From: a virus
Taxonomy: Duplodnaviria; Heunggongvirae; Uroviricota; Caudoviricetes
Length of the DNA: 35,933 bases
Virus record (IMG/VR): IMGVR_UViG_2684623171_000008
Reading direction: 5' to 3' (one strand)
Below, one piece after another: positions 1-32,741 of the stretch. The notes under the pieces are model-generated. The model saw only the letters and a list, made by a program, of their open reading frames with translations, had not been told where the DNA came from and searched no databases. Within the stretch, counting starts at the first letter, position 1; each line of letters starts with the position of its first letter. A program made the position numbers and the translations under genes.

Positions 1-141
1 TTACTGCTTACACTGTAAGAACGCCGCAAACTCCGCTCCCCAGAAGCTCATCCGTATTTCGCACAGCGAACCGTGCAGCATCCAGATGATGAGGATTGCC
101 GTCACGCAGAACGTGATGGCCGTAAGCGATTTTTGCGACAT
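1..141 (-). CDS. Hok/Gef-family type I toxin-like small membrane protein (46 aa, MSQKSLTAITFCVTAILIIWMLHGSLCEIRMSFWGAEFAAFLQCKQ)
   Basis: Own translation of the minus strand (ATG 141..139, TAA 3..1); ORF too short for the supplied track. N-terminal hydrophobic helix plus SLCEIR and AAF motifs resemble Hok/HokA. Confidence 0.5.
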   Translation of the reverse strand: MSQKSLTAITFCVTAILIIWMLHGSLCEIRMSFWGAEFAAFLQCKQ

Positions 142-271
142 AGCACTTGCTCCTTTTCCGGAGAGGCGCTAACCTTTCACTTGTCAAGGTAATGCGGTTA
201 GGGCCTCGGTTAAACAGAAATGTTTTCCGGGGCCTTTCCACATCTGGCCTTCGGGTATTCCCTCCGACCAT
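8..271 (-). CDS. Possible Mok-like overlapping frame covering the Hok-like ORF
   Basis: Track ORF of 87 aa in an alternative frame that overlaps the whole hok-like ORF, as mok does in hok/sok loci. No independent support. Confidence 0.2.
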   Translation of the reverse strand: MVGGNTRRPDVERPRKTFLFNRGPNRITLTSERLAPLRKRSKCYVAKIAYGHHVLRDGNPHHLDAARFAVRNTDELLGSGVCGVLTV

Positions 272-331
272 CAGCCGAAAGGCACCCGCGCGTAATCTAT
301 CGCTTTTTTGTTACTCCGGCAATTCTGCCTG

Positions 332-592
332 TTAATTCTGAGGTAAAGGCAAACTCATCTGGTTGTTTCCCCTGTGCGAAGCTGGCAGCTCATTCCACGG
401 GATGCCCTCTGAAGAGTGAACGCCGGGAGCGTGTTTCGATGTGAATTTATGGAAAGCCTCCAGTGTTGAGAAGCATACGCCGCATTCCAGATTGTTACAC
501 TGGTAATATTTTTGCCGCACTGTGTTTGAATCATTTTCCGGACGACTGGTGCGGATACGGGCAGATGCGCCACAAAGCGGACAACGGAACAT
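332..592 (-). CDS. ogr: Ogr/Delta-family zinc-finger late-gene transcription activator
   Basis: Begins MFRCPLCG...YYQCNNLECG, the Cys4 pattern of P2 Ogr; AAGGGAGG RBS upstream; lies downstream of D as in P2. Confidence 0.8.
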   Translation of the reverse strand: MFRCPLCGASARIRTSRPENDSNTVRQKYYQCNNLECGVCFSTLEAFHKFTSKHAPGVHSSEGIPWNELPASHRGNNQMSLPLPQN

Positions 593-752
593 AGCGACCT
601 CCCTTAACGTGATGCTGCCGCTATTCTAAGTTGTACTGACTCAGACTCCAACCGTTAGTCCGCTTTGAATGGTAAATGGAATTGTTTTCTCTTCAGAATT
701 AACTATAAAAATGCATTGTATTCAATAAGTTACCATCTAATGATTTGTTATC

Positions 753-1358
753 TTATTTAGGTTCATCATAAATTTCGTTTCCATCTTCATCCCTATATCC
801 CTGTAGTCCTGTGAGGTAATCAACAAAATATCCATTCCCTAAATCGGCTTCATGTTCTACCTGATTACTTGTAAAGTACTTTTCGGAAGACATATTCAAA
901 TTATTTGGAAGATGTGTCGAAGGCTCTTCACACCATGATGGTAACTTTTCATCAGGCTTCTGATGTCGATTAAAATTGTTATACAAATCTTTAGGGCATT
1001 GATAGCGGCTTATTCCGTCAAATAAAAACTCGTGAGTTACACATGAGGGATAGTGATTATTGATAAATGATTCCACTAAACAGGCAACTTCTTCAGGGTG
1101 CACAGAAAAACACTCACTTTTACTGCCGGTGCTAAGGTGACGTATACGCTTAACACCAGGTTGAGACTCAAGATATACCAAAAGATTAGACTCAATCTCA
1201 TGAACATCACCGTCTATGATGTTATAAGCAGTGTAAATAAAGAACCCTGGGTTCTGGGATGAGACATGTCTATTCTGCAGACCGCGAGTTGTTTTTCCTA
1301 CTTTTGACCATTGGTGATCATTAATATTAGCACCAACATATATCCAGTTATTGCTCAT
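753..1358 (-). CDS. T5orf172/GIY-YIG-like domain protein (cargo gene between D and ogr)
   Basis: N-terminus WIYVGANIN...KVGKTTRGLQNR fits the IY-(N10)-KIGxT-R pattern of T5orf172/GIY-YIG domains; AT-rich gene with its own upstream promoter-like sequence; no P2 counterpart at this position. Confidence 0.55.
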   Translation of the reverse strand: MSNNWIYVGANINDHQWSKVGKTTRGLQNRHVSSQNPGFFIYTAYNIIDGDVHEIESNLLVYLESQPGVKRIRHLSTGSKSECFSVHPEEVACLVESFINNHYPSCVTHEFLFDGISRYQCPKDLYNNFNRHQKPDEKLPSWCEEPSTHLPNNLNMSSEKYFTSNQVEHEADLGNGYFVDYLTGLQGYRDEDGNEIYDEPK

Positions 1359-1394
1359 ACAGTTCTCTTATTATGGGGAAGAAATACCATGAAA

Positions 1395-1422
1395 ATTTTA
1401 TCGTTTATTGGGTTGTGTTCAA
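1395..1422 (-). promoter_or_regulatory. Putative sigma70 promoter for the cargo gene (TTGAAC-N16-TAAAAT on minus strand)
   Basis: Hexamers read on the minus strand, about 35-65 nt upstream of the ATG at 1358. Confidence 0.3.
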
Positions 1423-1510
1423 GAAATTAATGTAGAGTGAATTGTCTTAATGAGCTTAGTGTGCGCAATAAATATACTGACTTAGGTCTGAGTAAGGGCA
1501 TCTAAATTGC

Positions 1511-2620
1511 TCATTCTGTTTCCGCTATCCATTCCGGGATTTTGGCTTCAAGCTCAAGCTGCGTGGTAAAGCCGCTGTTATCAATGGTGTGCTCGGCTTT
1601 TGCAATAATCCAGTCCTGATTGTCGATGTCACTTTTGAAGCCTGTCACCGTGCCATGCATTTCAGGGTAGAGTTCTGCACGTCCACGCGCCAGCGTGATG
1701 GAGAATGATGCGGCTCCGCGTTGTAGTTGCTGCCACTTTGCCGCCGCTGCACGCCTTGCTGCCTGCTCGTTCTGGTAAGTCTTGCGTAACACAAACACAT
1801 TGCCTGCCGCACCTTCCATATAATCACCTTCACGGCTGCTGCTTTTCTCCTTTTTGGGTTTTGGCGGTTTGCGGCGTTTCACGCTGACTTTTTTCTTTTT
1901 CCCGTAATTAAGATCAAGCCAGTAAGCGCGTACCCCCGTATACGCTTCGCGGTCAGCAATGCGGAACTGATGGCGATCGCCGCTGCTGCGTGTGATGGCG
2001 AACGAGGGCAACGGCTGGCCCTGTGCATTCACGCCACCGCCGGGCATGATGAATAACAGATTACCGCTTTTTACCGTGGTGATTGCGCCCAGCATTTCCG
2101 CCATGCGTGTAAGGAAGGACATGTCGCTTTCTTCGGTCTGGTCGGCGTGGTCGATTTCAATATCCATCAGCATTTCGCTGATTTGCGGTTTCAGACCGTA
2201 CCGATGAGCGATGGCGGATACCACGCGCTCAACGGTCACATCATGCCAGGACACCTCACGTTTAACGTTAAATTCATCCCGAAAATCTGCGCTTCTGGCT
2301 GAAACAGTCAGCCTGTCGGGCGGTCCTTCATGAGCAATTTCATCAACAATGTAAGTGCCTTTTTCTGTCAGCGGTTCTCCTTTCCAGCCAATGAGAACCG
2401 TCAGGCGCGCGCCCCGTGGCGGTAGCTGCAACTGACCATCCGCATCATCCAGCGTGATGGCGATCTGGTCTGCCTCAAATCCCCGGTTGTCGGTCAGCGA
2501 CAGGCTCATCAGGCGCTCCGCCACGCCGGACAGCGTTTTACCCTCCGCGAGAATATCAAAATCCGGCATTTTTACGGGGTCTGTGCTCTGACTGAGCAAT
2601 TGCATGGTGGTGTCGGTCAT
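1511..2620 (-). CDS. D: Tail protein D (P2 gpD-like)
   Basis: Resembles P2 gpD from MTDTTMQLLSQ onward; start set at the internal ATG at 2620 preceded by GGGAGG, not the longer track ORF. Confidence 0.85.
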   Translation of the reverse strand: MTDTTMQLLSQSTDPVKMPDFDILAEGKTLSGVAERLMSLSLTDNRGFEADQIAITLDDADGQLQLPPRGARLTVLIGWKGEPLTEKGTYIVDEIAHEGPPDRLTVSARSADFRDEFNVKREVSWHDVTVERVVSAIAHRYGLKPQISEMLMDIEIDHADQTEESDMSFLTRMAEMLGAITTVKSGNLLFIMPGGGVNAQGQPLPSFAITRSSGDRHQFRIADREAYTGVRAYWLDLNYGKKKKVSVKRRKPPKPKKEKSSSREGDYMEGAAGNVFVLRKTYQNEQAARRAAAAKWQQLQRGAASFSITLARGRAELYPEMHGTVTGFKSDIDNQDWIIAKAEHTIDNSGFTTQLELEAKIPEWIAETE

Positions 2621-2777
2621 CTGTTCCCTCCCTGTGCGGCATGGTCGCATGTGCGTGCGGAGGGGGTTACTGCTTTTTGTTGTCGCCGTGGCGGGAGAAT
2701 GGCGCAGGGGTGAGATTACGCGCGTGGTGGGTGATGATTGTTGCCGAATCATTTAACGGATACAAGGGGGTGAAGCT

Positions 2778-3962
2778 ATGAGTGAAACTCGTTTTCATGG
2801 TGCCCGTGTTACGGAAAATACCGACCTGGTAACAGCGATTAACGATGTTGATTCCAGCGTTATCGGTATCGTGGCAACGGCGGATGATGCGGACGCGAAG
2901 CTGTTCCCGCTGAACAAGCCCACACTGCTGACCCGCGTCAATGACGTGCTGGGAAAATGCGGAACAACGGGGACGCTTTATCGTGCGCTTAAGGCCATCG
3001 CAGACCAGGTGAGCACAAAGGTGATCGTCGTTCGCGTGGCTGAACACAAAGAAGAAGACGGAAAGACGCAGGATCAACTGGTTATCGGTGGTTCTGAGGA
3101 TGACGGCAGCTATACGGGGATGTATGCGCTGCTTGTTGCAGAACAGGATGAAAGCATCGGATACCGTCCGCGTATTCTGGCCGCGCCGGAGCTGGACACG
3201 GAGGCGGTGACAAAATCCCTGTGCGTGATTGCGGGTAAGCTGCGCGCGTTTGTGTATGCCTCATGTCACGGCTGTAACACGATGGCTGAGGCGATTACCT
3301 ACCGCCAGAAATTCAACGAACGTGAGGTGATGCTCTTATGGCCGGACTTCATCGCCTACAACCCGAAAAGTGGCAAAAACGAAACGTTCCCCGCGCCTGC
3401 CTATGCGTGCGGCCTTCGTGCGTACATTGACCATGAGCAGGGCTGGCACAAATCGCTGTCCAACGTTCCGGTTAAAAATGTGCTGGGAATGTCCAGGCAT
3501 GTGTTCTGGTCGTTGCAGGCCGAAGACAGTGATGCCAACAGCCTCAACAACAAAGAAATCACGACCATTATTCGTCGCAACGGGTTCCGCTTCTGGGGCA
3601 ACCGCACACCGGAAACGAACGCCTACATCTTTGAGGTGTATACCCGAACCGCACAGGTGCTGGCTGATTCAATTGCGGAAGCGCAGTTTGAAACCATCGA
3701 CAGTCCACTGACGCCTGCGAACGTGAAGGATGTTATCAGTGCCATCAGGGCAAAACTGGATTCACTGGTTACTGCCGGGAAACTGATTGGCGCGTCGTGC
3801 TGGTATGACGTGGTGGATAACAGCACCACGGATTTACGTCAGGGGCGTGTGCGTATTCGCTACAAATATACGCCCGTTCCTCCGCTGGAAGATATGGAGC
3901 TTTACCAGACGTTTACTGATGAATACTTTGATCCCGCATTTGCGGTGTTGGGAGGTGTCTGA
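2778..3962 (+). CDS. FI: Contractile tail sheath protein FI
   Basis: 394 aa; conserved P2 FI stretches (FPLNKP, LRAF.YAS, GWHKSLSNV, RRNGFRFWGNRT, YTPVPPLE). Confidence 0.9.
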   Translation: MSETRFHGARVTENTDLVTAINDVDSSVIGIVATADDADAKLFPLNKPTLLTRVNDVLGKCGTTGTLYRALKAIADQVSTKVIVVRVAEHKEEDGKTQDQLVIGGSEDDGSYTGMYALLVAEQDESIGYRPRILAAPELDTEAVTKSLCVIAGKLRAFVYASCHGCNTMAEAITYRQKFNEREVMLLWPDFIAYNPKSGKNETFPAPAYACGLRAYIDHEQGWHKSLSNVPVKNVLGMSRHVFWSLQAEDSDANSLNNKEITTIIRRNGFRFWGNRTPETNAYIFEVYTRTAQVLADSIAEAQFETIDSPLTPANVKDVISAIRAKLDSLVTAGKLIGASCWYDVVDNSTTDLRQGRVRIRYKYTPVPPLEDMELYQTFTDEYFDPAFAVLGGV

Positions 3963-4474
3963 TGGCTGTACCAAAACATCTTCGCTTTTTTACGCTGTTT
4001 GTGAATGGTGAAAACGAAGTGGGTAAGGTGACGTCCGTCACTCCACCTAAACTGACGCGCAAAACTGAAAGCTATCGTGGCGGTGGCATGATGGGGGCGG
4101 TGAGTATCGACCTCGGTCTTGATGATTCTGCGCTTGATGCGAGTTTTGTCATGGGGGGCGCAGTTCGTGAGCTGTTCCTTAAATATGGCGGCACGATTGA
4201 CGGCACGTTGCTGCGTTTTGCGGGTGAATACTACACCGATGCAGAAAGTGATCTGTATGAAATCGAGATGCGCGGGCGTGTGACGGAAATTGATATGGGG
4301 GAAGCCAAACAGGGCGAAGCCACATCACACACTTACGCTGTCAAAAACACCTACTACAAGCTGAGCGTTAACGATCGTCCGCTGTGGGAAATCGACCTGC
4401 TGAACCACATCTACCGGAAGGACGGCAAGGACATCGTGCCTGATCGCATCCGTTCCGCGCTTGGGCTTGGCTGA
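3962..4474 (+). CDS. FII: Tail tube protein FII
   Basis: 170 aa; ATGA overlap with the FI stop; P2 FII-like. Confidence 0.9.
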   Translation: MAVPKHLRFFTLFVNGENEVGKVTSVTPPKLTRKTESYRGGGMMGAVSIDLGLDDSALDASFVMGGAVRELFLKYGGTIDGTLLRFAGEYYTDAESDLYEIEMRGRVTEIDMGEAKQGEATSHTYAVKNTYYKLSVNDRPLWEIDLLNHIYRKDGKDIVPDRIRSALGLG

Positions 4475-4528
4475 TAAGTAATATGCAGGCGGCGCAGTGC
4501 GCCGCCTCTGACTGAAAGGAGTTTCCTG

Positions 4529-4894
4529 ATGAAAGAGACGAAAAACATCGATACCGAAAACACGGTAGTTGCTGACACTGTGAAAGAAACCAGTGAGCGT
4601 GGCGTAAAACTTACCCAACCAATTGAGCGAGGCGGCGAAAAAATCACGTATGTGGAGATCACCGGGGCTATTGAGCAGGCTGGATCTCTGCGAGATTTGT
4701 CGCTGTCTGATGTGCTGAATCTGAAAGCGGAATCCATGTTTACGCTGCTGTCACGCGTGACATCACCGCGACTGGATGAAGTGACGATCAAAAAAATGGC
4801 ATCCCGTGACTTTATTCAGTTATGTGTGGTTGCCGTAAATTTTTTGAGCGGTGCGGACTCTGGCGGGAAGAACGAACAGGCGACGGAAGCCTGA
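4529..4894 (+). CDS. E: Tail assembly chaperone E
   Basis: 121 aa; AAGGAG RBS; sits between the tube and tape-measure genes and contains the slippery site. Confidence 0.8.
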   Translation: MKETKNIDTENTVVADTVKETSERGVKLTQPIERGGEKITYVEITGAIEQAGSLRDLSLSDVLNLKAESMFTLLSRVTSPRLDEVTIKKMASRDFIQLCVVAVNFLSGADSGGKNEQATEA

Positions 4895-5058
4895 TCACGG
4901 TTGTGTGCTTTGAGCACATAGAAGACTTTGTGGCAGATATTGCCGTTATTTTTAACTGGTCGCCCGCCGAAATCTTCATGATGACGCCCGGCGAAGTGGT
5001 TAGCTGGCGTGAGCGGGCGGCACTTCGCAGCGGGAATGCAGACAATGAAGACTCTTGA
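4529..5058 (+). CDS. E+E' frameshift fusion product (-1 shift at 4840-4846)
   Basis: E frame to the slippery site, then the -1 frame (track ORF 4822..5058) to TGA at 5056-5058. Confidence 0.65.
4840..4846 (+). other. Programmed -1 frameshift slippery heptamer T_TTT_TTG (E to E')
   Basis: Codons AAT TTT TTG in the E frame; the -1 frame stays open to 5058. This is the heptamer used by P2 E/E'. Confidence 0.7.
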
Positions 5059-7852
5059 TATCCGGGTCGCTTTCAGCGCCGTTGACAGGCTGACCCGACC
5101 TGCAGAAAACGCACGCCGCCTGATGGGGCAGTTTGGTGACTCCATCCAGCGAACGCAGGGGGCGATCAAAAATCTCGAGCGTCAGGCGCGTTCATTTGAG
5201 CGCGCCCGCGACGCTGTCAGTAAAGCGGATGCGGGTATCGTGAAAGCACGACGCCAGCTTAACGCCCTTAATCAGTTACAACGCACGGGTACAGTGCTCA
5301 GCGAAAAACAACAAAAGCTGATGCAGCAGTTAAGCACCCGGCTTGAACGCCTGAATGAATCGCGCACACGGGAAATTCAGAAAATGCGGGAGCTTGGCGG
5401 AGAGCTGAAACGCCACGGCATTTCCCTGACAGGCAGCGATAACACCATCCAGCAGGCCATCAGACGCACCGAACAGTACAACAACCAGCTTGAACGCGAA
5501 CGGCAGGCGCTTGCGCGTGTAACGCGGGCGCGTGAGCGGTATTCGCGCGCACAGGAAACAGCGGGAAAACTGAAAACAGGTGGTGCGCTGGCAATTGGTG
5601 CGGCAGCTGCGGGCGGCTATGCTGCCGGGCGTTTTTTGCAGCCTGCGATCGGGTTCGGGAAAGAGATGTCCCGCGTTCAGGCACTGACGCGAATCGACAA
5701 AAACAGCCCGCAGTTTAAGGCGCTGCGTGAGCAGGCGTTAAAACTTGGCTCTGAAACGCAGTTCACCGCAGGCGATGCCGCCAGTGGGCAGGCATTTCTT
5801 GCAATGGCTGGTTTTACTCCGCAGGCCATTCAGGCTGCGCTTCCCGGCGTGCTGAGCATGGCAACGGCTGGCGGTATGGATCTCGGCGAGACGGCGGATA
5901 TTGGCTCAAATATCCTGACGCAGTTCGGCCTTTCTGCTGACCAGATGGACCGGGTCGGTGACACACTTACCGCAGCGTTTACCCGTACCAACACTGACCT
6001 TCGCGCACTGGGTGAAACCATGAAATATGCAGGTCCGGTGGCGGGCAAGCTGGGAATATCGCTGGAGCAGGCCGCAGCGATGGCGGGCGTACTGGCGAAT
6101 ATGGGTATCAGGGGAAGTGATGCCGGGACGGCAATGCGTGCCAGCCTGGCTCGTCTGGCATCACCGCCAAAGGCGGCGGCAGAAGCTCTGAAAGAGCTGG
6201 GCGTGTCCGTCTCTGATGCGAACGGCAAAATGCGCCCGATGGAGGATTTGCTGGCCGACCTTTATAAAGCCACCCGCAAATACGGGGAAGTTGACCGGGT
6301 ATCGTTCTTTAAGGACATTGCCGGAGAAGAGGCTTTCACATCATTTATGGCCCTCGTTGATGCGGCAGGTGACGGCTCCTTACCTAAACTGAGAAAAGAA
6401 CTTGAAGGCGCGCGCGGTGAGGCTGAGCGCACGGCAAAGGTTATGGCCAACAACCTTGACGGCGATCTGAAATCACTCGGCAGTGCATGGGAAGGGTTGC
6501 GCATCCGCATTGCAGATCTGATTGACGGTCCGCTGCGTTCTGTCACGCAGTGGCTAACGCGGGTGGTCTCAAAGGTGACGGCACTGGCGCAGGCCCATCC
6601 TGTACTGACGCGCCAGCTACTGATTGCAGGCGGTGCGCTGCTGGCAGTGACTGCAACCGTAGGCTCGTTGTCGCTTGCTCTTGGTGTGCTTGCTGGCCCA
6701 CTGGCAAAACTGCGTCTTGGTTTTTCCCTCCTGACCGGATCAATGAATGCTGTCAGGCTCCTGCCAGCACTATGGGGAATGGTGACGGGTTCCGTTTCTT
6801 TGCTGGGGGGTGCTATCGGGGCGCTGTTCAGTCCGGTTGGTCTTATCGTGGCTGCGCTTGCCGGAGCTGCCGTTCTTATCTGGAAATACTGGGATCCCAT
6901 CAGGGCATTTTTTGCCGGGGTGTTCAGCGGGATTATGGAAAGGCTGGCCCCGTTGCGCGAAACCTTTGAACGGTTTGGTTCTGTTTTTGACGCAATCGGA
7001 AGCGGGATCAGCCAGGTGTTTAACTGGTTTAAATCGCTGCTGTCACCGATGGAGTCCAGCAAGGAAACGCTGGATAAATGTACCAGTGCTGGCGAGATAT
7101 TCGGTAACGTTCTTGGCGGTGCGTTACAACTTGTTCTGACGCCTGCAAAAATGCTACTGGATACGCTGGCGTGGATACTTGAAAAACTTGGCGTCCTTCC
7201 GGATGAAGCGGAAAGGGCGCGCAAGAAAATCGAAGACGCACAGCGTGCGGCCATTCTTCAGGACAAGGTTGCCTTGCTTCAGGGGGACCTGGCGAAAATC
7301 AATCCGCCGAAGCCTGTGGAAAATGGCAATGGCACCGGAGGTGATAAACCCAAAGACAACAAACCGCTCACAGACAGCAATACCGGTACGCTACGCAGAC
7401 TCAGCAAAATTGCTGATAACACAGGTAAGCTGGTTGATGAGACGAAAAAACGCATTGGCCCCGGCGATATTGTCTTTAAGAACCTGCCCCGCGCACTTGC
7501 TGTTCGTGGGGAGTGGCAGGAGCGGAAGATTGCGCAGGTCAGTAAGCCTGCTTCCGCAATCAACATCACACCCGTGGTCCCGACTCCTCTGCCTCCGGCG
7601 CTGGTCCCTGTTGTTGCGGCCAGCTCCCGCCCGGTGGCGGAGGCCATACGATCGCCAGTGGCATCAGTTCCTGCAACTTCCCGTAACCGGGAGCCTGTTG
7701 TCTCCGGATTTGGCGGTGAAATTCATGTTCATCTGCATAACGTTGTTACGCAGAATCCCCGCGAACTGGCGAAACTGGTCGGTGAAATGGTCAGGGCAGA
7801 ATTGGAACGACGCGACCGTGCCGGACGTGGCAGTTTTTACGATAAAGATTGA
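5036..7852 (+). CDS. T: Tail tape measure protein T
   Basis: About 940 aa; coiled-coil N-terminus, central hydrophobic/Gly-Ala-rich region; overlaps the E' end. Start uncertain (5009, 5036 or 5045). Confidence 0.85.
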   Translation: MQTMKTLDIRVAFSAVDRLTRPAENARRLMGQFGDSIQRTQGAIKNLERQARSFERARDAVSKADAGIVKARRQLNALNQLQRTGTVLSEKQQKLMQQLSTRLERLNESRTREIQKMRELGGELKRHGISLTGSDNTIQQAIRRTEQYNNQLERERQALARVTRARERYSRAQETAGKLKTGGALAIGAAAAGGYAAGRFLQPAIGFGKEMSRVQALTRIDKNSPQFKALREQALKLGSETQFTAGDAASGQAFLAMAGFTPQAIQAALPGVLSMATAGGMDLGETADIGSNILTQFGLSADQMDRVGDTLTAAFTRTNTDLRALGETMKYAGPVAGKLGISLEQAAAMAGVLANMGIRGSDAGTAMRASLARLASPPKAAAEALKELGVSVSDANGKMRPMEDLLADLYKATRKYGEVDRVSFFKDIAGEEAFTSFMALVDAAGDGSLPKLRKELEGARGEAERTAKVMANNLDGDLKSLGSAWEGLRIRIADLIDGPLRSVTQWLTRVVSKVTALAQAHPVLTRQLLIAGGALLAVTATVGSLSLALGVLAGPLAKLRLGFSLLTGSMNAVRLLPALWGMVTGSVSLLGGAIGALFSPVGLIVAALAGAAVLIWKYWDPIRAFFAGVFSGIMERLAPLRETFERFGSVFDAIGSGISQVFNWFKSLLSPMESSKETLDKCTSAGEIFGNVLGGALQLVLTPAKMLLDTLAWILEKLGVLPDEAERARKKIEDAQRAAILQDKVALLQGDLAKINPPKPVENGNGTGGDKPKDNKPLTDSNTGTLRRLSKIADNTGKLVDETKKRIGPGDIVFKNLPRALAVRGEWQERKIAQVSKPASAINITPVVPTPLPPALVPVVAASSRPVAEAIRSPVASVPATSRNREPVVSGFGGEIHVHLHNVVTQNPRELAKLVGEMVRAELERRDRAGRGSFYDKD

Positions 7853-7858
7853 GGAGTC

Positions 7859-8353
7859 ATGGCCATGATGATGATCTACGGCATGTTTGTTTTTGAGCTG
7901 CGCACATTGCCGCATCAGCAGTTACAGCAAAATAAAAGCTGGCGGCATGTGAAAAATGAACGCGTTAACCGTTCAGCAAGCTGGCAGTATATCGGGGCAG
8001 GCGATGATCGCATCGTGCTTTCTGGTGTGCTTTATCCTGAAATCACAGGTGGCGAAGTGTCGCTGTCGCTGCTGACCACGCAGGCGTATACAGGACGCCC
8101 CTGGCCTCTGATTGATGGCGTCGGACAGATTTACGGCATGTATGTACTGACTGAAACGAATACGACCCGCTCCGAGTTTGATCGCTACGGTAAGGCGAAA
8201 AAGATAGAATTTTCACTGACTCTTGAACGCTGTGATGAGGATTTGCGGGAGCGCCTGCAATCCTCATCGTTCAGTGATATGCTGTCCGGCTTCAAAGATA
8301 AGGTCACATCATCCCTTAACAGCGCGGCCAGCTCCGTTAAAGGGCTGTTTTGA
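7859..8353 (+). CDS. U: Tail protein U
   Basis: About 160 aa directly after T; P2 gpU-like. Start may be ATG 7865, which has better GAGGAG spacing. Confidence 0.8.
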   Translation: MAMMMIYGMFVFELRTLPHQQLQQNKSWRHVKNERVNRSASWQYIGAGDDRIVLSGVLYPEITGGEVSLSLLTTQAYTGRPWPLIDGVGQIYGMYVLTETNTTRSEFDRYGKAKKIEFSLTLERCDEDLRERLQSSSFSDMLSGFKDKVTSSLNSAASSVKGLF

Positions 8354-8360
8354 TTAACGC

Positions 8361-8390
8361 AAAACCGCTAATGGTCAGATTAGCGGTTTT
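8361..8390. terminator. Perfect 12-bp-stem hairpin between convergent U and invertase (bidirectional terminator-like)
   Basis: AAAACCGCTAAT-GGTCAG-ATTAGCGGTTTT; overlaps the invertase stop codon; T-rich flank on the plus strand. Confidence 0.5.
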
Positions 8391-8979
8391 CATTTTCCTG
8401 AATCTGCCTGATTGTTTCTTCAGCCTGTATATCGCCTACAGGGTGATAACGATAAATCGTCGATATGCCGATGTCGTAAATGATCGCCAGTTGTTTCCTG
8501 TCATGACCGTTTTTAATCAGCCTCGCTATTTGCTCGTGTTGTTCTTTTGTCAACTTCGGGCGACGTCCGCCAATGCGTCCTTGTGCGCGTGCTGCTGCCA
8601 GCCCGGCCAGTGTACGCTCTACAATTAATTCACGTTCCATTTCGGCTAAAGCTCCCATGACGTGAAAAAAGAAACGCCCCATGGGTGTTGATGTGTCAAT
8701 GCTGTCCGTCAGACTACGGAAATTAACACCTTTTTCCCGCAATTCCTCAATAAGCGTGATCAGGTGTTTCATACTTCTGCCCAGTCTGTCCAGCTTCCAG
8801 ACAACCAGCGTATCTCCTTCTGATAGCGTTCTGAGCAGTTTTTTCAATCCCGGTCTGGCTGATTTCGTTCCGCTGATTTTATCTTCAAAAATCAGTTCAC
8901 ATCCTGCGCACTCCAGCGCGTTACGCTGCAATTCTGTATTCTGGTCATTTGTTGATACGCGGACATAGCCAATAAGCAT
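8380..8979 (-). CDS. Serine-recombinase DNA invertase (Gin/Pin/Cin/Hin family)
   Basis: 199 aa; MLIGYVRVSTNDQNT...VVWKLDRLGRSMKHL...GRIGGRRPKLT, with catalytic Ser region and C-terminal HTH; GGGGA RBS. Confidence 0.9.
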   Translation of the reverse strand: MLIGYVRVSTNDQNTELQRNALECAGCELIFEDKISGTKSARPGLKKLLRTLSEGDTLVVWKLDRLGRSMKHLITLIEELREKGVNFRSLTDSIDTSTPMGRFFFHVMGALAEMERELIVERTLAGLAAARAQGRIGGRRPKLTKEQHEQIARLIKNGHDRKQLAIIYDIGISTIYRYHPVGDIQAEETIRQIQENENR

Positions 8980-9034
8980 GATGGATCCCCTGAATAAAAA
9001 CCGGGGATGATGCCAGTTAGCCGTAATCTCTGCA

Positions 9035-9060
9035 TTTTCTTAAACGTTGGTTTGGGAGAA
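9035..9060. other. Invertase crossover site A (gix/hix-like 26 bp, 12-2-12)
   Basis: TTTTCTTAAACG-TT-GGTTTGGGAGAA; its reverse complement shares 14 identical bp (TTCTCCCAAACCAA) with site B. Confidence 0.65.
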
Positions 9061-9420
9061 GCGGCAAAACGGGATGTGGGGACAGGGGAAAATCAGATAC
9101 CGGACATGGCCTCTTTTGCCAGTGGTGATGGGTGGATGAAATTACCCAACGGGAAAATCCTGCAATATGGTCGTGGTGCGGTTACGCCGACATTATCGAC
9201 GCAAACAATGAGAATTACATTCAGCATCCCTTTCCCCAAAAAAGCGGACTGCGCCATGCTTACTCATTCTGGTGATGGCGGTGCGCCTTTAGGCGCTGGG
9301 CGAGGGTTCGTGATGACTGCAGAAGGCCCAACGTTAACCGGCTTTAATTCTGCTTACAGAACGTCATCAACCAGCGACACGGTATCGATGAATTACAGTT
9401 GGTGGGCTGTTGGTGAGTAA
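9049..9420 (+). CDS. Alternative (currently unfused) tail-fibre C-terminal segment, expressed only after inversion
   Basis: Open frame from site A (..GLGEAAKRDVG...) to the stop at 9420, in the same frame as H relative to the shared GLGE codons; the track ORF start at 9007 is not a real N-terminus. Confidence 0.55.
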   Translation, partial: GLGEAAKRDVGTGENQIPDMASFASGDGWMKLPNGKILQYGRGAVTPTLSTQTMRITFSIPFPKKADCAMLTHSGDGGAPLGAGRGFVMTAEGPTLTGFNSAYRTSSTSDTVSMNYSWWAVGE

Positions 9421-9431
9421 TTTTATTCAGG

Positions 9432-9884
9432 GTGATTTATATGAACGAATATGTTTATAGCGCAAGGCATAATGCTTTTTTCCCTGTGGATATGATTGAT
9501 AAATATAAATCAGAGGGATGGGATTTATCAGACGCTAAGGAAGTAAATCAAAATATTATCAGTGAGTTTATGGCTGAACCGCCACAAGGAAAAATCCGTA
9601 TTGCCGGAGATGATGGGCTGCCTGCGTGGGCAGATATTCCTCCACCCACGCATGAAGAGCTTATTGAAATTACTGAATCAGAAAGACAGCTACTAATTAA
9701 CCAGGCCAACGAATACATGAACAGTAAGCAATGGCCCGGTAAAGCCGCTATTGGTCGTCTGAAAGGTGAGGAACTGGCGCAATATAATTTGTGGCTGGAT
9801 TATCTGGACGCACTGGAACTGGTTGATTCCTCCAGTGCGCCAGATATTGAATGGCCTACGCCTCCGGCAGTTCAGGCCAGATGA
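9432..9884 (+). CDS. Tail fibre assembly chaperone, alternative copy (tfa')
   Basis: 150 aa; C-terminal APDIEWPTPP tail resembles the other tfa (APDVIWPELP); lies inside the invertible segment. Confidence 0.7.
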   Translation: MIYMNEYVYSARHNAFFPVDMIDKYKSEGWDLSDAKEVNQNIISEFMAEPPQGKIRIAGDDGLPAWADIPPPTHEELIEITESERQLLINQANEYMNSKQWPGKAAIGRLKGEELAQYNLWLDYLDALELVDSSSAPDIEWPTPPAVQAR

Positions 9885-10458
9885 CATCCGGCGCGGTGCT
9901 GGTATCTGTTGCCGTCACCGCGTCAATGTAATCCAGCACAGCGTTAAGTCGGGTGGTTTCTGCCTGCGTCAGTTTACGTCCGGCCTGCAATTTCAGTTGA
10001 ATCAGACTGATGGAAGCCATTGCAGTATCAATCAGCGACTGGCGCTGTGCTTCTGCCGCTTCTACTGCGGTACCGTGTTGTGCCTCAGTATCTGTCACCC
10101 ATTTTTCACCATCCCATTTATCGTATGGCGTTAACGGGGCGATAGTGGTTGTATTTTCGGGATAGTCGCCTAGTGCTGTGATTTCTTTGGCATCTCCCGT
10201 TTCGGTGTTATAGACGATTTCACCGCGATGGTCTGACACATATTCCCATGATTTTAAATCCACAGAACGGCAAATTGTATAACCAGCCTTAGATGTAACA
10301 GGAGCGTCTAAACAGGAATATGCTGGAATACCGACACCCACAGCAAGATATTCAGTTGATGCAGAAATATACTCCCGTGTTTCACCATCATAGTTATAGA
10401 CAGTAATATTCCCCGCCTTCGTGGCAATAAGCTCGCCATTTAATACAGCGTTATCCAT
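9856..10458 (-). CDS. G: Tail fibre assembly chaperone (P2 G-like), currently expressed copy
   Basis: 200 aa immediately downstream of H; its 3' end overlaps tfa' convergently by 29 bp. Confidence 0.75.
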   Translation of the reverse strand: MDNAVLNGELIATKAGNITVYNYDGETREYISASTEYLAVGVGIPAYSCLDAPVTSKAGYTICRSVDLKSWEYVSDHRGEIVYNTETGDAKEITALGDYPENTTTIAPLTPYDKWDGEKWVTDTEAQHGTAVEAAEAQRQSLIDTAMASISLIQLKLQAGRKLTQAETTRLNAVLDYIDAVTATDTSTAPDVIWPELPEA

Positions 10459-12092
10459 TATGCAGCCCTCACGATATAGTTAAATGCAATATTCCGTGGA
10501 CGAGTTTCATTTATCCCATATGCTGTTGTTCTCTGATTCCCGACAAAATATCCATTTGGATTCGAAGATACATAGTAATCATCAAAATCAAGTGGACTAT
10601 CAGCGCCCGGAGTCAGACTGGCAATATATCCTCTACCCATAACTTCTGATGCTGGTATTTCTTTTGTACGATAATCACTGACTCTGAATATCTGCCCCTG
10701 ATGAGTATGTAATTCTACCCCTCCATTCTGAAGACTTAGCAAGGCACGTACAGCATCAATACCACGCCCGTCATCCCAGCCACGAATAAACTCACCACGT
10801 AAATCAGGCAATTTATTTGTCGGATAAGCCTTTGCCAGTTCCGGGTATTCTTCAGCAGAAAAAGCGGCACCGTTGCATTTCAGCCAGCCTGTTGGCGGAG
10901 TGGCTGAAGGCCACGGAACAGGCACCCCAACCGGTAATGCAGAGCCTTCTCCCAAACCAAGGTAATCAAGAACTCCCTGAGTGCTGGTTTTACCAAGAAT
11001 GGCACGTCCAACACTTGTCAACGCGGTTAACGCGGCACGATCTGCCCCTGTAAAATATGGGAGTTTATCTGCTGATGTAGCAAGCTCCGCCAGCGCCGTC
11101 AGGGTGGCATCCTTCGGTTGCTTACCCGCAAGCGCGTTAGTCATGGTGGTCGCAAAATTCGGGTCATTGCCCAGCGCCGCAGCCAGTTCGTTCAGCGTGT
11201 TCAGTGCATCAGGTGACGAATCTACAAGTGCGGCAATCGCGGCCATAACGAAAGCCGTGCTTGCGATCTGGGTACTATTAGTTCCCTGTGGCGCTGTTGG
11301 TGTTGTTGGCGTTCCGGTCAGTGCCGGGCTGTTTAATGGTGCTTTCTTGTTCGTTTCATCCATTACCACCTTAACAGCTTTTGGTGTCGCTGCCAGCGTT
11401 TCAGACGTGCTGTTCGTGGCGCTACTGAGCTGAACAATCCCTTTTTGTATAGTGGTGGCGTTCTGGGCGGTATATTTCCCGTTAGCCAGGTCATATGCAG
11501 CCTTAACCGCTTTCGGTGTTGCGGCCAGTGTTTCTGATTCACTGTTAATTGCACTGCTTAACTGAGTAAAACCTTTTGCGGTCAGCGAGGCGTCCGGGTG
11601 ACGTCGTGACTGTTCGTGCTCTGAGATTTTATCATCCACATATTTGCGGGTTGCCAGAACCACAGACGGGTCGATTTTCAGCGTGATAGCTTCGGTGTTC
11701 GTGACAACCAGAATCATGCGGATAGTCTGGGTGCGTCCACTGCCTTCCTGCAACTGCGGTTTGTACGTTTCCGGGCAGTTTGCCACCGCAATGAGTACAC
11801 CTTCATCATCATAAAGACCAATCTCACGGATCCAGAATCCTCCCTCGTTTTCAGGGATGATTTGCTCCGCAATAATCTGGCTCTGATTGTTAGGGTCAAC
11901 ACTCAGAAGATTCAGCGGTGCAATGCGTTTCTGGTTAATCAGTTTTGTTTGTGCAGGGTCTGGTGTTGGTAACACACCATTTGCATCACCAACGGCCATT
12001 TGCGTCAGATTCAGCTTACTGCCGAGCATCGTCGCGTTAGCCAGTCGTGCTGCGCCCTGATTAGTCAGAATGGCGTAGTATTTCACTGTCAT
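10458..12092 (-). CDS. H: Tail fibre protein H (constant N-terminal part plus currently fused variable C-terminus)
   Basis: 544 aa; long stretches close to P2 H (DPSVVLATRKYVDDKISEHEQSRRHPDASLTAKGFTQLSSA...). Crossover site B lies at codons ..DYLGLGEG.. Confidence 0.9.
   Translation of the reverse strand: MTVKYYAILTNQGAARLANATMLGSKLNLTQMAVGDANGVLPTPDPAQTKLINQKRIAPLNLLSVDPNNQSQIIAEQIIPENEGGFWIREIGLYDDEGVLIAVANCPETYKPQLQEGSGRTQTIRMILVVTNTEAITLKIDPSVVLATRKYVDDKISEHEQSRRHPDASLTAKGFTQLSSAINSESETLAATPKAVKAAYDLANGKYTAQNATTIQKGIVQLSSATNSTSETLAATPKAVKVVMDETNKKAPLNSPALTGTPTTPTAPQGTNSTQIASTAFVMAAIAALVDSSPDALNTLNELAAALGNDPNFATTMTNALAGKQPKDATLTALAELATSADKLPYFTGADRAALTALTSVGRAILGKTSTQGVLDYLGLGEGSALPVGVPVPWPSATPPTGWLKCNGAAFSAEEYPELAKAYPTNKLPDLRGEFIRGWDDGRGIDAVRALLSLQNGGVELHTHQGQIFRVSDYRTKEIPASEVMGRGYIASLTPGADSPLDFDDYYVSSNPNGYFVGNQRTTAYGINETRPRNIAFNYIVRAA
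10947..10972. other. Invertase crossover site B inside H (gix/hix-like 26 bp)
   Basis: Plus strand TTCTCCCAAACC-AA-GGTAATCAAGAA; inverted relative to site A with identical central dinucleotide (TT in the H reading direction). Confidence 0.65.
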
Positions 12093-24493: not shown

Positions 24494-24805
24494 TTACTCA
24501 GGAAATAACGCCCGGATATTCCCAGCCATCTGGCTGGTTATCTTAGCCACTGGTGCAGACTGTGCTTCAAACTTTTTTGAGCTGATTTGTGTCACAGGTA
24601 ACATCTCATCATCAGCCCATGCGGCCAGTCGGTAAGCCTCTGCCGGATTCGTCTTCAGAAGTGCCAGCCCGGCCAGAAAAGCCACGCGTTGGCCGCTTTT
24701 GCGGGCTTCTGGTGTAAGGCTGTCCAGCCAGGCGCATGCTTCTCCTTCGTTCTTGACGGCGGCGGGCTTCAGATAGAAACTTATCCGTCTGGTTGGTGTC
24801 GTCAT
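24494..24805 (-). CDS. ParR/StbB-like partition adaptor protein
   Basis: 103 aa from ATG 24805 (AAGGAG RBS); ISFYLKP...LDSLTPEARKSGQRVAFLAGLAL...LFPE resembles plasmid R1 ParR; directly follows the parM-like gene. Confidence 0.65.
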   Translation of the reverse strand: MTTPTRRISFYLKPAAVKNEGEACAWLDSLTPEARKSGQRVAFLAGLALLKTNPAEAYRLAAWADDEMLPVTQISSKKFEAQSAPVAKITSQMAGNIRALFPE

Positions 24806-24809
24806 TGGT

Positions 24810-25769
24810 TTACTCCTTGTCCATTGCGTACAGCCCATTAACCAGAGCAAACTGTGGCACCCCGTCCGCGATGAAAGTCGCATTAACTCCGCAGGCTTCG
24901 CGGATAGCGGGTGCCACAATCTCCGCCCCGCCACCGACAACCATCACCCGCCCGTAACCCGAAAAAACCGCCAGCGCGCGGATCACGCGTTGTTTCAGTG
25001 TTTCTTCCTTTTCACGAATAACCGCCATCAGGCTGGCGTAATGCGCGTCATTGTGGATGTGCTGGCGCAGCCAGGCTTCATTATGGCGATGTTCGATAAT
25101 GGTATTGGCGATGTGGTGACTGGTGCGCATACCGTTAGTGGCCATCACCGACAGTACGGCATCGGCCATAAGAGAAACGCCTACGTGTGGATCGCAAAAC
25201 ACCTGGCTGATACCTGCCAGTTGCCCCTGAACCTTTGCCACATCCAGCGTGGTTCCGCCCAAATCCACAATCAGCAGGGATTCAAACGGACTCATGTCAG
25301 CCAGTGCTTTAAAGCCAGCCGGAATGGATTCAGGCATAACCCGTACGTTACGGATAGTGAATGCTTCGCCGTTCTGGTACTCCACCGGGCGCATGACGTT
25401 CGCTTTTTTGCGGTTGATGTTGGCCATGTCCGGCTGTGCGTTTGTGTCGAAATATTCGCTCAGTGGCAGGGTAACAACCACATCCACTTCCTGTGGCGTG
25501 ATGTCTGATTTGACCAGCGCGTGATGAATGGCAATGACATTCACATCGCTGTACTGGTATTGCGTGTCGGTCGTCTGGACAAAGCGATCGCTGACCGGAT
25601 CAAAACCATAGCGCACGCCATCAAGCATGTAGTTAGCAGGCTGCGAGCCACCGAACGGCGCAGACCATTCCGACTTGAAGCTGTTCGGGCTGATGGCGTT
25701 GCGGCGTTCGCCGTTCTCAGTCCATGCCAGCTTGATGTTGGTGGAGCCGTCGTCGATGTAAATTTTCAT
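24810..25769 (-). CDS. ParM/StbA-like actin-type segregation ATPase
   Basis: 319 aa; MKIYIDDGSTNIKL, LIVDLGGTTLD and VMVVGGGAEI are actin-fold phosphate and adenosine motifs; extensive resemblance to R1 ParM as recalled from memory. Confidence 0.85.
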   Translation of the reverse strand: MKIYIDDGSTNIKLAWTENGERRNAISPNSFKSEWSAPFGGSQPANYMLDGVRYGFDPVSDRFVQTTDTQYQYSDVNVIAIHHALVKSDITPQEVDVVVTLPLSEYFDTNAQPDMANINRKKANVMRPVEYQNGEAFTIRNVRVMPESIPAGFKALADMSPFESLLIVDLGGTTLDVAKVQGQLAGISQVFCDPHVGVSLMADAVLSVMATNGMRTSHHIANTIIEHRHNEAWLRQHIHNDAHYASLMAVIREKEETLKQRVIRALAVFSGYGRVMVVGGGAEIVAPAIREACGVNATFIADGVPQFALVNGLYAMDKE

Positions 25770-32692: not shown

Positions 32693-32741
32693 TCATGGAG
32701 CGCTGGGGGCATGGTGGTCTTGTAACGCTGGGGTTTCACGA

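What the first reader, a model, noticed from the sequence alone, without database searches (positions are those of the whole stretch)
753..1422. AT-rich T5orf172/GIY-YIG-like cargo gene with its own promoter between D and ogr
A 201-aa protein with an IYV...KVGKTTR...R N-terminal pattern typical of T5orf172/GIY-YIG-like domains occupies a position that is empty in P2. It is much more AT-rich than the neighbouring structural genes and has a plausible sigma70 promoter, so it is probably expressed in the lysogen. Such cargo genes are candidates for superinfection exclusion or defence.
Basis: partly seen in the sequence, partly recalled or inferred. Interest (0 to 1): 0.55.

Follow-up and report, generated by a model that had tools for sequence, protein, structure and literature searches.

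The report
Orphan GIY-YIG nuclease gene in prophage hotspot
A P2-like (P88-type) E. coli prophage carries, at a swap-prone spot between its tail gene D and its late-gene activator ogr, a rare stand-alone nuclease-like gene with its own promoter that is most likely an uncharacterised anti-phage gene, although no experiment supports that yet.

Summary
A 201-aa ORF lies at 753-1358 on the minus strand, between gpD and ogr, in the most AT-rich stretch of the window. Its promoter-like site lies at 1422-1395.

The gene is cargo, not a structural part. Only 8 of about 1,500 E. coli genomes with this D/ogr pair carry it. The same junction is either empty or holds at least 15 other AT-rich cassettes, including PifA-like, PIN, HEPN and PRTase genes.

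Homologues sit in other P2-like variable loci, in satellite-like islands and beside restriction-modification or PARIS-like genes. About 75 nt of upstream DNA, including the promoter-like site, is shared with a homologue at another locus.

A defence nuclease is the best reading (about 0.45). A selfish homing endonuclease is the main rival. The acidic C-terminal module is unique to the family and argues against an I-TevI-like DNA-binding arm.

The parts
753..1358 (-). CDS of the 201-aa orphan protein (stop codon at 753-755)
   Evidence: ORF list. It has 40 homologue clusters and is annotated only as 'hypothetical protein'. dN/dS is 0.08-0.42.
1071..1346 (-). N-terminal T5orf172 / GIY-YIG-fold domain (about residues 5-96). 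It holds invariant Y7, K19, G21, T23, R30, H31, E56 and E82.
855..962 (-). Variable linker predicted to be disordered (about residues 133-168); homologues have length variation here
   Evidence: pLDDT is below 50 for residues 133-168. The alignment has insertions and deletions in this stretch.
756..881 (-). Conserved acidic C-terminal beta-hairpin module (about residues 160-201; YFTGNQVEHExDLGxGxFVDxxTGxQGYRDEDGNxEW). It is found only in this family.
   Evidence: The model shows four short strands with pLDDT of about 75. Only 15 hits were found in 1.84 billion representatives: several short proteins of family size (P0048 confirmed as a member) and long repeat-rich proteins judged spurious. Mean net charge is -7 and pI 4.3 across all 38 members.
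1395..1422 (-). Sigma-70-like promoter of the cargo gene: -35 TTGAAC (1422-1417), 16-nt spacer, -10 TAAAAT (1400-1395)
   Evidence: Consensus scan. The element is kept as TTGGGC-16-TAAATT or TAAAAT in homologues at the Q-A and S-V loci. An 'ATGATAAAAT'-type motif lies about 45 nt upstream of the ATG in most contexts. Nucleotide homology with L113 spans window 1435-720.
1364..1369 (-). Shine-Dalgarno-like AAGAGA, 5 nt upstream of the ATG
   Evidence: Read directly from the sequence.
634..1509 (.). The 876-bp cassette that is absent from empty D-ogr sites. It is bounded by a 9-bp direct repeat: TCTAAGTTG at 625-633 and TCTAAATTG at 1501-1509.
   Evidence: Junction comparison with the empty site L008 and with other cassettes.
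623..651 (-). Conserved ogr-proximal cassette end, inferred to be the ogr promoter: TTGGAG (651-646), 17 nt, TAGAAT (628-623)
   Evidence: It is conserved in all 15 cassette types. Its position relative to the ogr ATG matches the annotated P2 ogr promoter. The motif GTTGGARTCTGAG occurs only upstream of ogr in the loci held.
332..592 (-). ogr (late-gene activator), the downstream flank of the hotspot
   Evidence: Pfam Ogr_Delta 5.3e-14.
1511..2620 (-). gpD (tail/baseplate hub protein, 369 aa), the upstream flank of the hotspot
   Evidence: Pfam Phage_GPD and phrog_52 at 1e-165. Called as a 369-aa gene in identical loci.

Best explanation
The gene is a self-contained accessory unit ('moron') made of a promoter plus one ORF. 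It sits in a cassette hotspot between gpD and ogr of a P88-like (Xuanwuvirus) P2-family prophage.

Its product is a divergent T5orf172-clade GIY-YIG nuclease with an apparently intact active site (Y7, R30, E82). A flexible linker joins this domain to a family-specific, strongly acidic C-terminal beta-hairpin module.

Most likely it is an anti-phage, inter-MGE conflict gene. Expressed from its own sigma-70 promoter in the lysogen, the nuclease would cut invading (or, in an abortive mode, cellular) nucleic acid. The acidic C-terminal module would act as a protein-binding sensor or an autoinhibitory lid, not as a DNA-binding arm.

Shown here: the ORF, the fold and family, purifying selection, cargo status, hotspot status, recurrent defence-type neighbourhoods, and a promoter-like element conserved with the gene.

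Inferred only: nuclease activity, expression in the lysogen, the defence phenotype, the substrate, and the role of the C-terminal module.
For: Fold and family. Invariant catalytic-type residues are in T5orf172 motif order. In the T5orf172 nuclease Odn the equivalent Arg and Glu are conserved, and E180A abolishes cleavage (PMC8263062). dN/dS is 0.08-0.42.

Cargo status: the gene is in 8 of 1,499 E. coli genomes that carry this D/ogr pair, and phage P88 itself has an empty site.

Hotspot: the junction is empty in 34 of the 76 IMG/VR loci where both anchors were found. It otherwise holds at least 15 unrelated AT-rich cassettes, mostly of one gene. These include a PifA-like KAP NTPase (2.4e-64), PDC-S31, a PsyrT-like PRTase pair, PIN_12 and a HEPN-like protein.

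Homologue contexts: the classical P2 gpQ-gpA (old/tin) hotspot (L025, L112); between S and V (L113); and beyond ogr (L114). Others lie in integrase/AlpA/DUF927 islands beside Eco57I/BsuBI restriction-modification genes, beside type I restriction-modification genes, near DUF4435/AAA_15 (PARIS-like) and YobI ATPase genes, and next to an RVT_1 gene.

Promoter: about 75 nt of upstream DNA, including the -35/-10 element, is shared with the L113 homologue at another locus.
Against: There is no experimental data of any kind.

The protein matches no PADLOC model even at E<=10 and no phage record.

The promoter match alone is at chance level.

No intrinsic terminator separates the gene from the ogr promoter (z = 0.5). 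Constitutive transcription might therefore read into ogr, which would be awkward for a lysogen.

The whole protein is acidic (pI about 5), which is unusual for a DNA nuclease.

The best-studied phage T5orf172 proteins are homing endonucleases or their derivatives (PMC10448857), not host-protective systems.

Neighbourhood association is suggestive only, and only about 12 homologue contexts were examined.
Confidence: 0.45

Rival explanations
1. It is a free-standing homing endonuclease: a selfish GIY-YIG/T5orf172 gene. It would persist by cutting cassette-free alleles (or other target sites) and being copied in during repair, with no benefit to phage or host.
For: T5orf172 genes in ICP1, T5-like and other phages are interpreted as homing endonuclease genes that sit between essential genes (PMC10448857). 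Here the gene lies between the essential genes D and ogr and is sporadic (8 of about 1,500 genomes). It has an N-terminal nuclease domain, a flexible linker and a C-terminal module, and its catalytic-type residues are invariant.
Against: The same junction, with the same 9-bp repeat and the same conserved ends, is used by at least 15 unrelated cassettes. Six of them lie on the opposite strand. Site occupancy is therefore a property of the locus, not of this gene.

Family members sit at four or more different loci in P2-like phages, and also in chromosomal islands beside restriction-modification or PARIS-like genes.

The protein has none of the Zn-finger DNA-binding domains found in 87% of T5orf172 homing endonucleases (PMC10448857). 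Its C-terminal module has net charge -7, so it is unlikely to bind DNA.
Confidence: 0.2
2. It is a weapon or regulator for phage-satellite or phage-phage conflict that works for the phage during lytic growth. One form would be an Odn-like nuclease against P4-like satellites or competing prophages. Another would be a CapR-like domesticated DNA-binding protein. On this reading it is co-expressed with D and ogr, not in the lysogen.
For: T5orf172 proteins Odn (anti-PLE nuclease) and CapR (a satellite-encoded repressor) are the only functionally dissected non-homing members (PMC8263062, PMC8096241). P2-family phages are parasitised by P4-like satellites. The gene lies on the same strand as D and ogr, with no terminator before ogr. 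Homologues also occur in satellite-like integrase/AlpA/primase islands.
Against: tblastn against 50,697 phage records found no similarity, so there is no sign of a borrowed replication-initiator or other phage- or satellite-derived targeting domain. (That the collection holds P4 was not checked.) Invariant catalytic-type residues argue against a purely DNA-binding role. The promoter-like element that is conserved with the gene fits autonomous expression better.
Confidence: 0.12
3. It is an anti-defence or DNA-mimic-type accessory protein. The highly acidic protein, and above all its C-terminal module, would bind and block a host DNA-binding defence protein. The GIY-YIG domain would serve as a scaffold.
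For: The whole protein has a pI of about 4.9. The C-terminal module has net charge from -3 to -11 in every member. Phage hotspots also carry counter-defence genes (PMC13586616).
Against: Strict invariance of the Tyr, Arg and Glu positions and of the KxGxT motif is not expected for a mere scaffold. The neighbours are defence genes, not anti-defence genes. PMC13586616 found anti-defence genes in only 28 of 1,511 P2-like elements.
Confidence: 0.05

Closest known systems
ICP1 T5orf172 homing-endonuclease genes (e.g. gp53, gp121, gp130, gp174; Barth et al. 2023, PMC10448857)
   Same: They share the T5orf172-clade GIY-YIG nuclease domain at one terminus, joined by a linker to a second module. They are also sporadic genes lying between conserved phage genes.
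   Different: Those proteins carry CapR/DUF723/DUF4397 Zn-finger DNA-binding repeats and occur in lytic phages. This protein has no Zn finger and an acidic C-terminal module. It occurs in temperate phages, satellite-like islands and chromosomal islands, and it shares its site with unrelated cassettes.
ICP1 Odn (Gp88), an origin-directed anti-satellite nuclease (PMC8263062)
   Same: It is a stand-alone T5orf172 nuclease used in conflict between mobile elements. Its catalytic Arg and Glu are conserved.
   Different: In Odn the T5orf172 domain is C-terminal and is fused to a RepA_N-like DNA-binding domain copied from its target. No such borrowed domain is detectable here.
PD-T4-3, a GIY-YIG type IV (5hmC-dependent) restriction endonuclease of E. 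coli (PDB 9u75)
   Different: No sequence-level relationship was found: there is no PADLOC hit and no hit to PDB sequences. The second domain is different.
P2 lysogenic-conversion genes old, tin and fun(Z), and the P2/P4 defence hotspots (Rousset et al. 2022, PMC9122126; PMC13586616; bioRxiv 10.1101/2024.10.15.618418)
   Same: These are also AT-rich, non-essential cargo genes that are swapped rapidly at fixed junctions between core genes of P2-family prophages. Homologues of this gene sit in the old/tin (gpQ-gpA) hotspot itself.
   Different: The junction is a different one, gpD-ogr in P88-like phages. That junction is not named in the main text of the three hotspot papers I searched. [quoted passage not shown] The protein family is unrelated to Old, Tin or Fun.
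SLX1 / HIGLE URI-type GIY-YIG structure-specific nucleases
   Different: Sequence identity is only about 10%. They are eukaryotic repair enzymes with RING/PHD partner domains and SLX4 dependence. The match establishes the fold only.

Membership tests
T5orf172 / MUG113 (Pfam PF10544 / PF13455; GIY-YIG clan) | The protein itself matches the family profile at or above the curated cutoff | tested here: not met
   The window protein gave no Pfam family at E<=1, and none at E<=10 when scanned as member 1 of A1.
T5orf172 / MUG113 (Pfam PF10544 / PF13455; GIY-YIG clan) | Homology to bona fide members, established through intermediate sequences | tested here: met
   Of 38 relatives, 20 hit MUG113 (best 4.8e-4) and 12 hit T5orf172 (best 3.6e-5). 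P0048 scores 30.1 bits against a 20-bit cutoff over profile positions 2-98 of 101. P0048 aligns to the family profile at hhalign probability 100%, E 3e-49, 43% identity.
T5orf172 / MUG113 (Pfam PF10544 / PF13455; GIY-YIG clan) | GIY-YIG alpha/beta fold | tested here: met
T5orf172 / MUG113 (Pfam PF10544 / PF13455; GIY-YIG clan) | Catalytic Tyr (strand 1), Arg (helix 1) and Glu retained | tested here: met
   Y7, R30 and E82 are invariant in 38 sequences and occur in T5orf172 motif order (WIYVG…KVGKTT…R…IE..L…SECF). Their equivalence to I-TevI or Odn residues is inferred from motif order and was not checked on coordinates. hhalign against I-TevI gave nothing.
T5orf172 / MUG113 (Pfam PF10544 / PF13455; GIY-YIG clan) | Endonuclease activity | not testable with these tools
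   This needs purified protein and catalytic mutants.
Free-standing GIY-YIG/T5orf172 homing endonuclease | A DNA-binding module (Zn-finger CapR/DUF723/DUF4397, NUMOD or HTH) tethered to the nuclease | tested here: not met
   No member gave such a Pfam hit. The C-terminal module has pI 4.3 and net charge -7. It has no convincing relatives outside the family.
Free-standing GIY-YIG/T5orf172 homing endonuclease | A gene-specific insertion site with presence/absence polymorphism among close relatives | tested here: inconclusive
   Presence/absence polymorphism exists. However, the identical junction also hosts at least 15 unrelated cassettes, and homologues occupy other loci.
Free-standing GIY-YIG/T5orf172 homing endonuclease | Cleavage of the gene-less allele and super-Mendelian inheritance | not testable with these tools
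   This needs in vitro cleavage assays and phage crosses.
Catalogued anti-phage defence systems (PADLOC-DB v2) | A match to a defence-protein model | tested here: not met
   There were no PADLOC families at E<=10.
Anti-phage defence gene (functional class) | Recurrent location in defence islands or MGE defence hotspots | tested here: met
   The D-ogr hotspot carries PifA-like, PDC-S31, PRTase, PIN and HEPN cassettes. Homologues lie in the P2 gpQ-gpA hotspot, and beside restriction-modification, PARIS-like, YobI and RT genes.
Anti-phage defence gene (functional class) | Protection of the host against phage infection | not testable with these tools
   This needs plaque or efficiency-of-plating assays.
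Odn-like chimeric anti-satellite nuclease | A targeting domain homologous to a satellite or phage replication protein | tested here: not met
   tblastn of the whole protein against 50,697 phage records found no match at E<=0.01.
P2-family 'moron' / lysogenic-conversion cargo | Non-essential, compositionally deviant, autonomous transcription signals, variable among close relatives | tested here: met
   GC is 0.37 against about 0.55 in the flanks. The gene is absent from P88 and from most relatives. A promoter-like element is conserved with the gene.

The most novel reading that the evidence does not exclude
The 201-aa protein founds a new single-gene anti-phage (or anti-satellite) system. In this reading, a T5orf172 nuclease is gated by a previously undescribed acidic beta-hairpin sensor or autoinhibitory module. 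The promoter-plus-gene unit shuttles among at least four variable loci of P2-family phages, and into satellite-like islands and defence islands. The gpD-ogr junction of P88-like phages would then be a defence-cassette hotspot not described in detail before, with conserved ends and a 9-bp repeat.
Probability: 0.35. Interest if true: 0.55.

Novelty: new member of a known kind. Interest (0 to 1): 0.42.

Why it matters
If the defence reading is right, three things follow.

First, there would be a new, very compact defence candidate of about 0.7 kb including its promoter. Its nuclease domain is known so far mainly from homing endonucleases and phage-satellite warfare. Its regulatory module has no relatives, so it offers a tractable case of how a GIY-YIG nuclease is kept safe in its own cell.

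Second, the gpD-ogr junction of P88-like prophages is present in about 28% of complete E. coli genomes. It is a further mine of single-gene candidates: at least 15 cassette types were seen in a sample of fewer than 100 loci, most of them unannotated.

Third, the conserved cassette ends suggest how cargo is exchanged without disturbing ogr regulation.

If the homing-endonuclease reading is right instead, this would be a rare case of such a gene in a temperate P2-family phage. It would also be a caution against inferring defence from hotspot residence.

Tried and rejected
(1) Direct profile searches of the protein against Pfam, PHROGs, NCBIfam and PADLOC found nothing. tblastn against phage records found nothing.

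(2) A profile search against PDB sequences gave only a chance hit, microplusin at E 0.72.

(3) Transposon-like terminal inverted repeats. By eye the cassette ends looked like imperfect 18-bp inverted repeats. A local-alignment test against shuffles showed no excess (best fraction 0.06), and same-cassette scores were about equal to cross-cassette scores. Rejected.

(4) Mobile ends that travel with the gene. The ogr-proximal motif occurs only upstream of ogr and is absent around homologues elsewhere. Rejected.

(5) A structured RNA at the D-proximal end. The consensus fold is only -3.6 kcal/mol, and Rfam finds only sok in 1-3000. Rejected.

(6) A conserved small ORF at the ogr-proximal end. There is no consistent start codon or length. 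Rejected.

(7) An intrinsic terminator between the cargo gene and ogr. None was found (z = 0.5).

(8) The C-terminal module as a known domain. A k-mer search found one fragment. The exhaustive profile search found 15 hits. The long ones are repeat-rich proteins, one of which also has WW domains, and I judged them spurious.

(9) The afdb50 fold library was unavailable.

(10) A partner or immunity gene inside the cassette. There are only out-of-frame ORFs of 43 aa or fewer.

Full report
**1. The observation**

The window holds a 606-nt ORF at 753-1358 on the minus strand (201 aa, ATG start).
- Downstream on the same strand, 332-592 is an Ogr/Delta zinc-finger protein (Pfam 5e-14).
- Upstream, 1511-2620 is gpD (Phage_GPD; phrog_52 at 1e-165).
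- GC falls to 0.33-0.41 across about 600-1500, against 0.52-0.60 in the flanks. The 601-1200 bin is the lowest of the whole 35.9-kb window.
As a bare consensus match it is at chance level (3 found, 3.9 expected).
- In phage P2 the D-ogr spacer is 81 bp and holds only the annotated ogr promoter.

**2. What the protein is**

The protein itself matches nothing in Pfam (E<=1), PHROGs, NCBIfam or PADLOC (E<=10). It matches no phage record by tblastn.

A search of 5.8 billion proteins found only 40 clusters. All are 'hypothetical' and all come from Gammaproteobacteria: E. coli, Citrobacter, Serratia, Morganella, Vibrio, Shewanella and Psychrobacter.

The homologues are full-length, 46-75% identical, with 30 invariant columns. 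dN/dS is 0.08-0.42, so this is a functional gene.

Family assignment rests on relatives, not on the protein itself:
- Scanned one by one, 20 of 38 relatives hit MUG113 and 12 hit T5orf172.
- A more distant member, P0048, passes Pfam's T5orf172 cutoff (30.1 against 20 bits, covering the whole domain).
- P0048 aligns to the family profile at hhalign probability 100%.

Structure agrees. The AF2 model has mean pLDDT 75.6, with the N-domain at 80-95.
- Among viral models, T5orf172-named proteins are among the top hits (ranks 2-4; probability 1.00).

The invariant residues follow T5orf172 motif order: WIY7VG, K19xGxT, R30, IE56..L, SE82CF. In the T5orf172 nuclease Odn, the corresponding Arg and Glu are conserved and E180A abolishes cleavage (PMC8263062).

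**3. The rest of the protein**

Residues 133-168 are predicted to be disordered and vary in length among homologues.

Residues about 160-201 form a conserved module of four short strands (YFTGNQVEHExDLGxGxFVDxxTGxQGYRDEDGNxEW).
- An exhaustive profile search of 1.84 billion representatives found only 15 hits. Several are short proteins of family size; the long ones are repeat-rich proteins judged spurious.
- The module is strongly acidic in every member: mean net charge -7 and pI 4.3. The whole protein has pI of about 4.9.

It is thus not a plausible DNA-binding arm. No member has the Zn-finger domains that accompany 87% of T5orf172 homing endonucleases (PMC10448857).

**4. The locus is a cassette hotspot**

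The prophage is P88-like (Xuanwuvirus, Peduoviridae). It is integrated between ihfA and a btuC-like gene.

The D/ogr pair occurs in 1,499 of 5,426 complete E. coli genomes, but the cargo gene is in only 8, always 100% identical. The exact protein is indexed in 837 blocks of the assembly collection. All ten loci shown have the same D-cargo-ogr arrangement, at two different chromosomal sites.

In a spread sample of RefSeq hits and in 80 IMG/VR loci, the junction was either empty or occupied:
- It was empty in 34 of the 76 IMG/VR loci where both anchors were found. The empty state has 42 bp between the D stop and the ogr start.
- It otherwise held at least 15 unrelated cassettes of 0.9-2.8 kb. 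All have GC 0.32-0.42, most hold one gene, and six lie on the opposite strand.

Their cargo includes:
- a PifA-like KAP NTPase (PADLOC 2.4e-64);
- PDC-S31;
- a PsyrT-like PRTase with a partner gene, which recalls the DprA-PRTase system (my inference);
- PIN_12, a HEPN (RiboL-PSP-like) protein and a ParA-type ATPase;
- a SEC-C/YecA protein, a membrane protein and others.

This is the signature of a defence-type hotspot. The main text of the hotspot papers I searched does not name 'ogr' or 'gpD' (PMC9122126, PMC13586616). [quoted passage not shown] The hotspot is therefore at most partly known.

**5. Where the family lives elsewhere**

Within P2-like elements:
- between portal gpQ and gpA, the old/tin hotspot of Rousset et al. 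2022, in a Serratia prophage (L025) and an IMG/VR contig (L112);
- between S and V (L113). From memory this is the P2 orf30 position, which I did not check;
- beyond ogr at the prophage end (L114).

Outside P2-like elements:
- integrase/AlpA/DUF927 islands at trmE in two Vibrio species, next to Eco57I-type and BsuBI/PstI restriction-modification genes;
- a DUF5906/AntA island in Morganella;
- a HigBA islet in Citrobacter;
- next to an RVT_1 gene in Shewanella;
- beside a type I restriction-modification system in Psychrobacter;
- near DUF4435/AAA_15 (PARIS-like) and YobI-ATPase genes on a metagenomic contig.

Distant relatives of the N-domain are on large Klebsiella plasmids. There is no conserved partner gene, and the window cassette holds no other credible ORF.

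**6. Does the promoter belong to the gene?**

Nucleotide homology between the window and L113, which sits at a different locus, runs from 1435 to 720. That takes in 77 nt upstream and 33 nt downstream of the ORF.

The -35/-10 pair is kept in the two closest homologues: TTGGGC-16-TAAATT in L112 and TTGGGC-16-TAAAAT in L113. An 'ATGATAAAAT'-like motif lies about 45 nt before the ATG in most contexts.

This is better evidence for an autonomous promoter than the consensus match alone. Whether it fires in the lysogen is untested.

No intrinsic terminator lies between the stop codon and ogr.

**7. Cassette ends**

Every cassette keeps about 45-75 conserved nucleotides at each end, which the empty site lacks. 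Every cassette also has a 9-bp direct repeat (window TCTAAGTTG at 625-633 and TCTAAATTG at 1501-1509), present once in empty sites.

The ogr-proximal end reads TTGGAG-17-TAGAAT (651-623, minus strand). It sits where P2's annotated ogr promoter sits relative to the ATG, so I infer that it is the ogr promoter.

The D-proximal end begins with a mini-ORF that overlaps the D stop codon and shows codon-like variation. Its meaning is unexplained.

My first impression of transposon-like inverted repeats failed a shuffle test. The ends do not travel with the gene, and no conserved RNA fold was found.

Either exchange through the conserved ends plus deletion between the 9-bp repeats, or targeted insertion, would fit the data.

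**8. Mechanism and rivals**

Best reading (about 0.45): a single-gene conflict or defence nuclease carried as a promoter-plus-gene moron. The acidic C-terminal module would serve as a sensor or autoinhibitor. The fold, conservation, cargo status and neighbourhoods are shown; the activity, expression, phenotype and module role are inferred.

Main rival (about 0.2): a free-standing homing endonuclease, which is what most studied phage T5orf172 genes are thought to be. Three findings weaken it. The junction is shared by unrelated cassettes. The family sits at many different loci, including non-phage islands. And there is no DNA-binding arm.

Lesser rivals:
- an Odn- or CapR-like phage-satellite weapon or regulator (about 0.12). 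No borrowed targeting domain was detected;
- a DNA-mimic-type anti-defence protein (about 0.05).

**9. Verdict**

The gene is a new, uncharacterised member of the T5orf172/GIY-YIG kind. It has a family-specific second module and sits in a P2-family hotspot that has been little described.

Interest is moderate. P2-family hotspots and nuclease cargo are well known. On the other hand, the family is absent from defence catalogues, is compact and is easy to test.

Noticed in passing
window 593-1510, and the matching D-ogr spacer in L008-L014 and L032-L111: The gpD-ogr junction of P88-like prophages is a cassette hotspot. It was empty in 34 of the 76 IMG/VR loci with both anchors, and otherwise held at least 15 unrelated AT-rich cassettes, mostly of one gene. 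Cargo includes a PifA-like protein, PDC-S31, a PRTase pair, PIN_12, a HEPN-like protein, ParA and a SEC-C protein. Most of these cassettes have no defence annotation.
   Followed up: yes
window 623-651 and 1440-1513; first and last ~75 nt of each cassette in L009-L013, L034, L040-L042, L049, L053, L062, L101, L104: All cassettes share conserved ends and a 9-bp direct repeat (CAACTTAGA on the D-to-ogr strand), which is single-copy in empty sites. The ogr-proximal end looks like the ogr promoter (TTGGAG-17-TAGAAT). The D-proximal end starts with a mini-ORF that overlaps the D stop codon (MSNLDAL(A/T)QT…) and shows codon-like variation. Inverted-repeat and RNA-structure explanations failed their tests, and the origin of the ends is unexplained.
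   Followed up: partly
window 2778-8353 (+) versus 332-2620 (-): The FI-FII-E-T-U tail genes are on the opposite strand to D and ogr, and diverge from D. In P2 the genes FI through D and ogr form one co-directional block. All P88-like loci examined share this arrangement, so D-ogr must have its own transcription signals.
   Followed up: no
window 1-287: A hok/gef toxin ORF (1-141, minus strand) and a sok antitoxin RNA (128-287, minus strand; Rfam 49.4 bits, below the 59-bit gathering score, E 2e-9) lie at the prophage end next to ihfA. This is a plasmid-type addiction module inside the prophage.
   Followed up: partly
window 24494-25769 (-): In this prophage the classical gpA-gpQ (old/tin) hotspot holds a ParM/StbA actin-like ATPase plus a Plasmid_stab_B (ParR-like) gene. 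This is a partition system, not a defence system. It fits the report that about a quarter of P2-like phages carry one there (PMC9122126).
   Followed up: partly
window 8380-10458: A serine invertase (Resolvase + HTH_7, 8380-8979, minus strand) lies next to a tail-fibre C-terminal segment and a tail-fibre assembly gene on the plus strand (9007-9884), opposite the fibre and assembly genes on the minus strand (9856-12092). This is probably an invertible host-range switch.
   Followed up: no
window 33722-34760 (+): Two AT-rich ORFs (166 aa, no family; 184 aa, coiled-coil, with weak ZorA/LmuB-type PADLOC hits) lie between the integrase (32592-33719) and the chromosomal btuC-like gene (34953 onward). 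This is the integrase-att position reported as a minor P2 defence hotspot (PMC13586616).
   Followed up: partly
window 1511-2752 (-); L001 6912-7765: RefSeq annotates gpD as a truncated 266-aa 'VgrG/Pvc8 family' protein plus a small pseudogene fragment. The intact ORF encodes 369 aa (up to 413 aa from the first ATG), and other pipelines call it that way. This is probably an annotation artefact repeated across hundreds of genomes.
   Followed up: partly
H62-H76 (plasmids collection): Distant relatives of the N-domain (29-31% identity) are annotated as hypothetical proteins on about 65 plasmids. Most are large conjugative Klebsiella or Raoultella plasmids. One near-full-length relative is on a Photobacterium damselae plasmid.
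   Followed up: no
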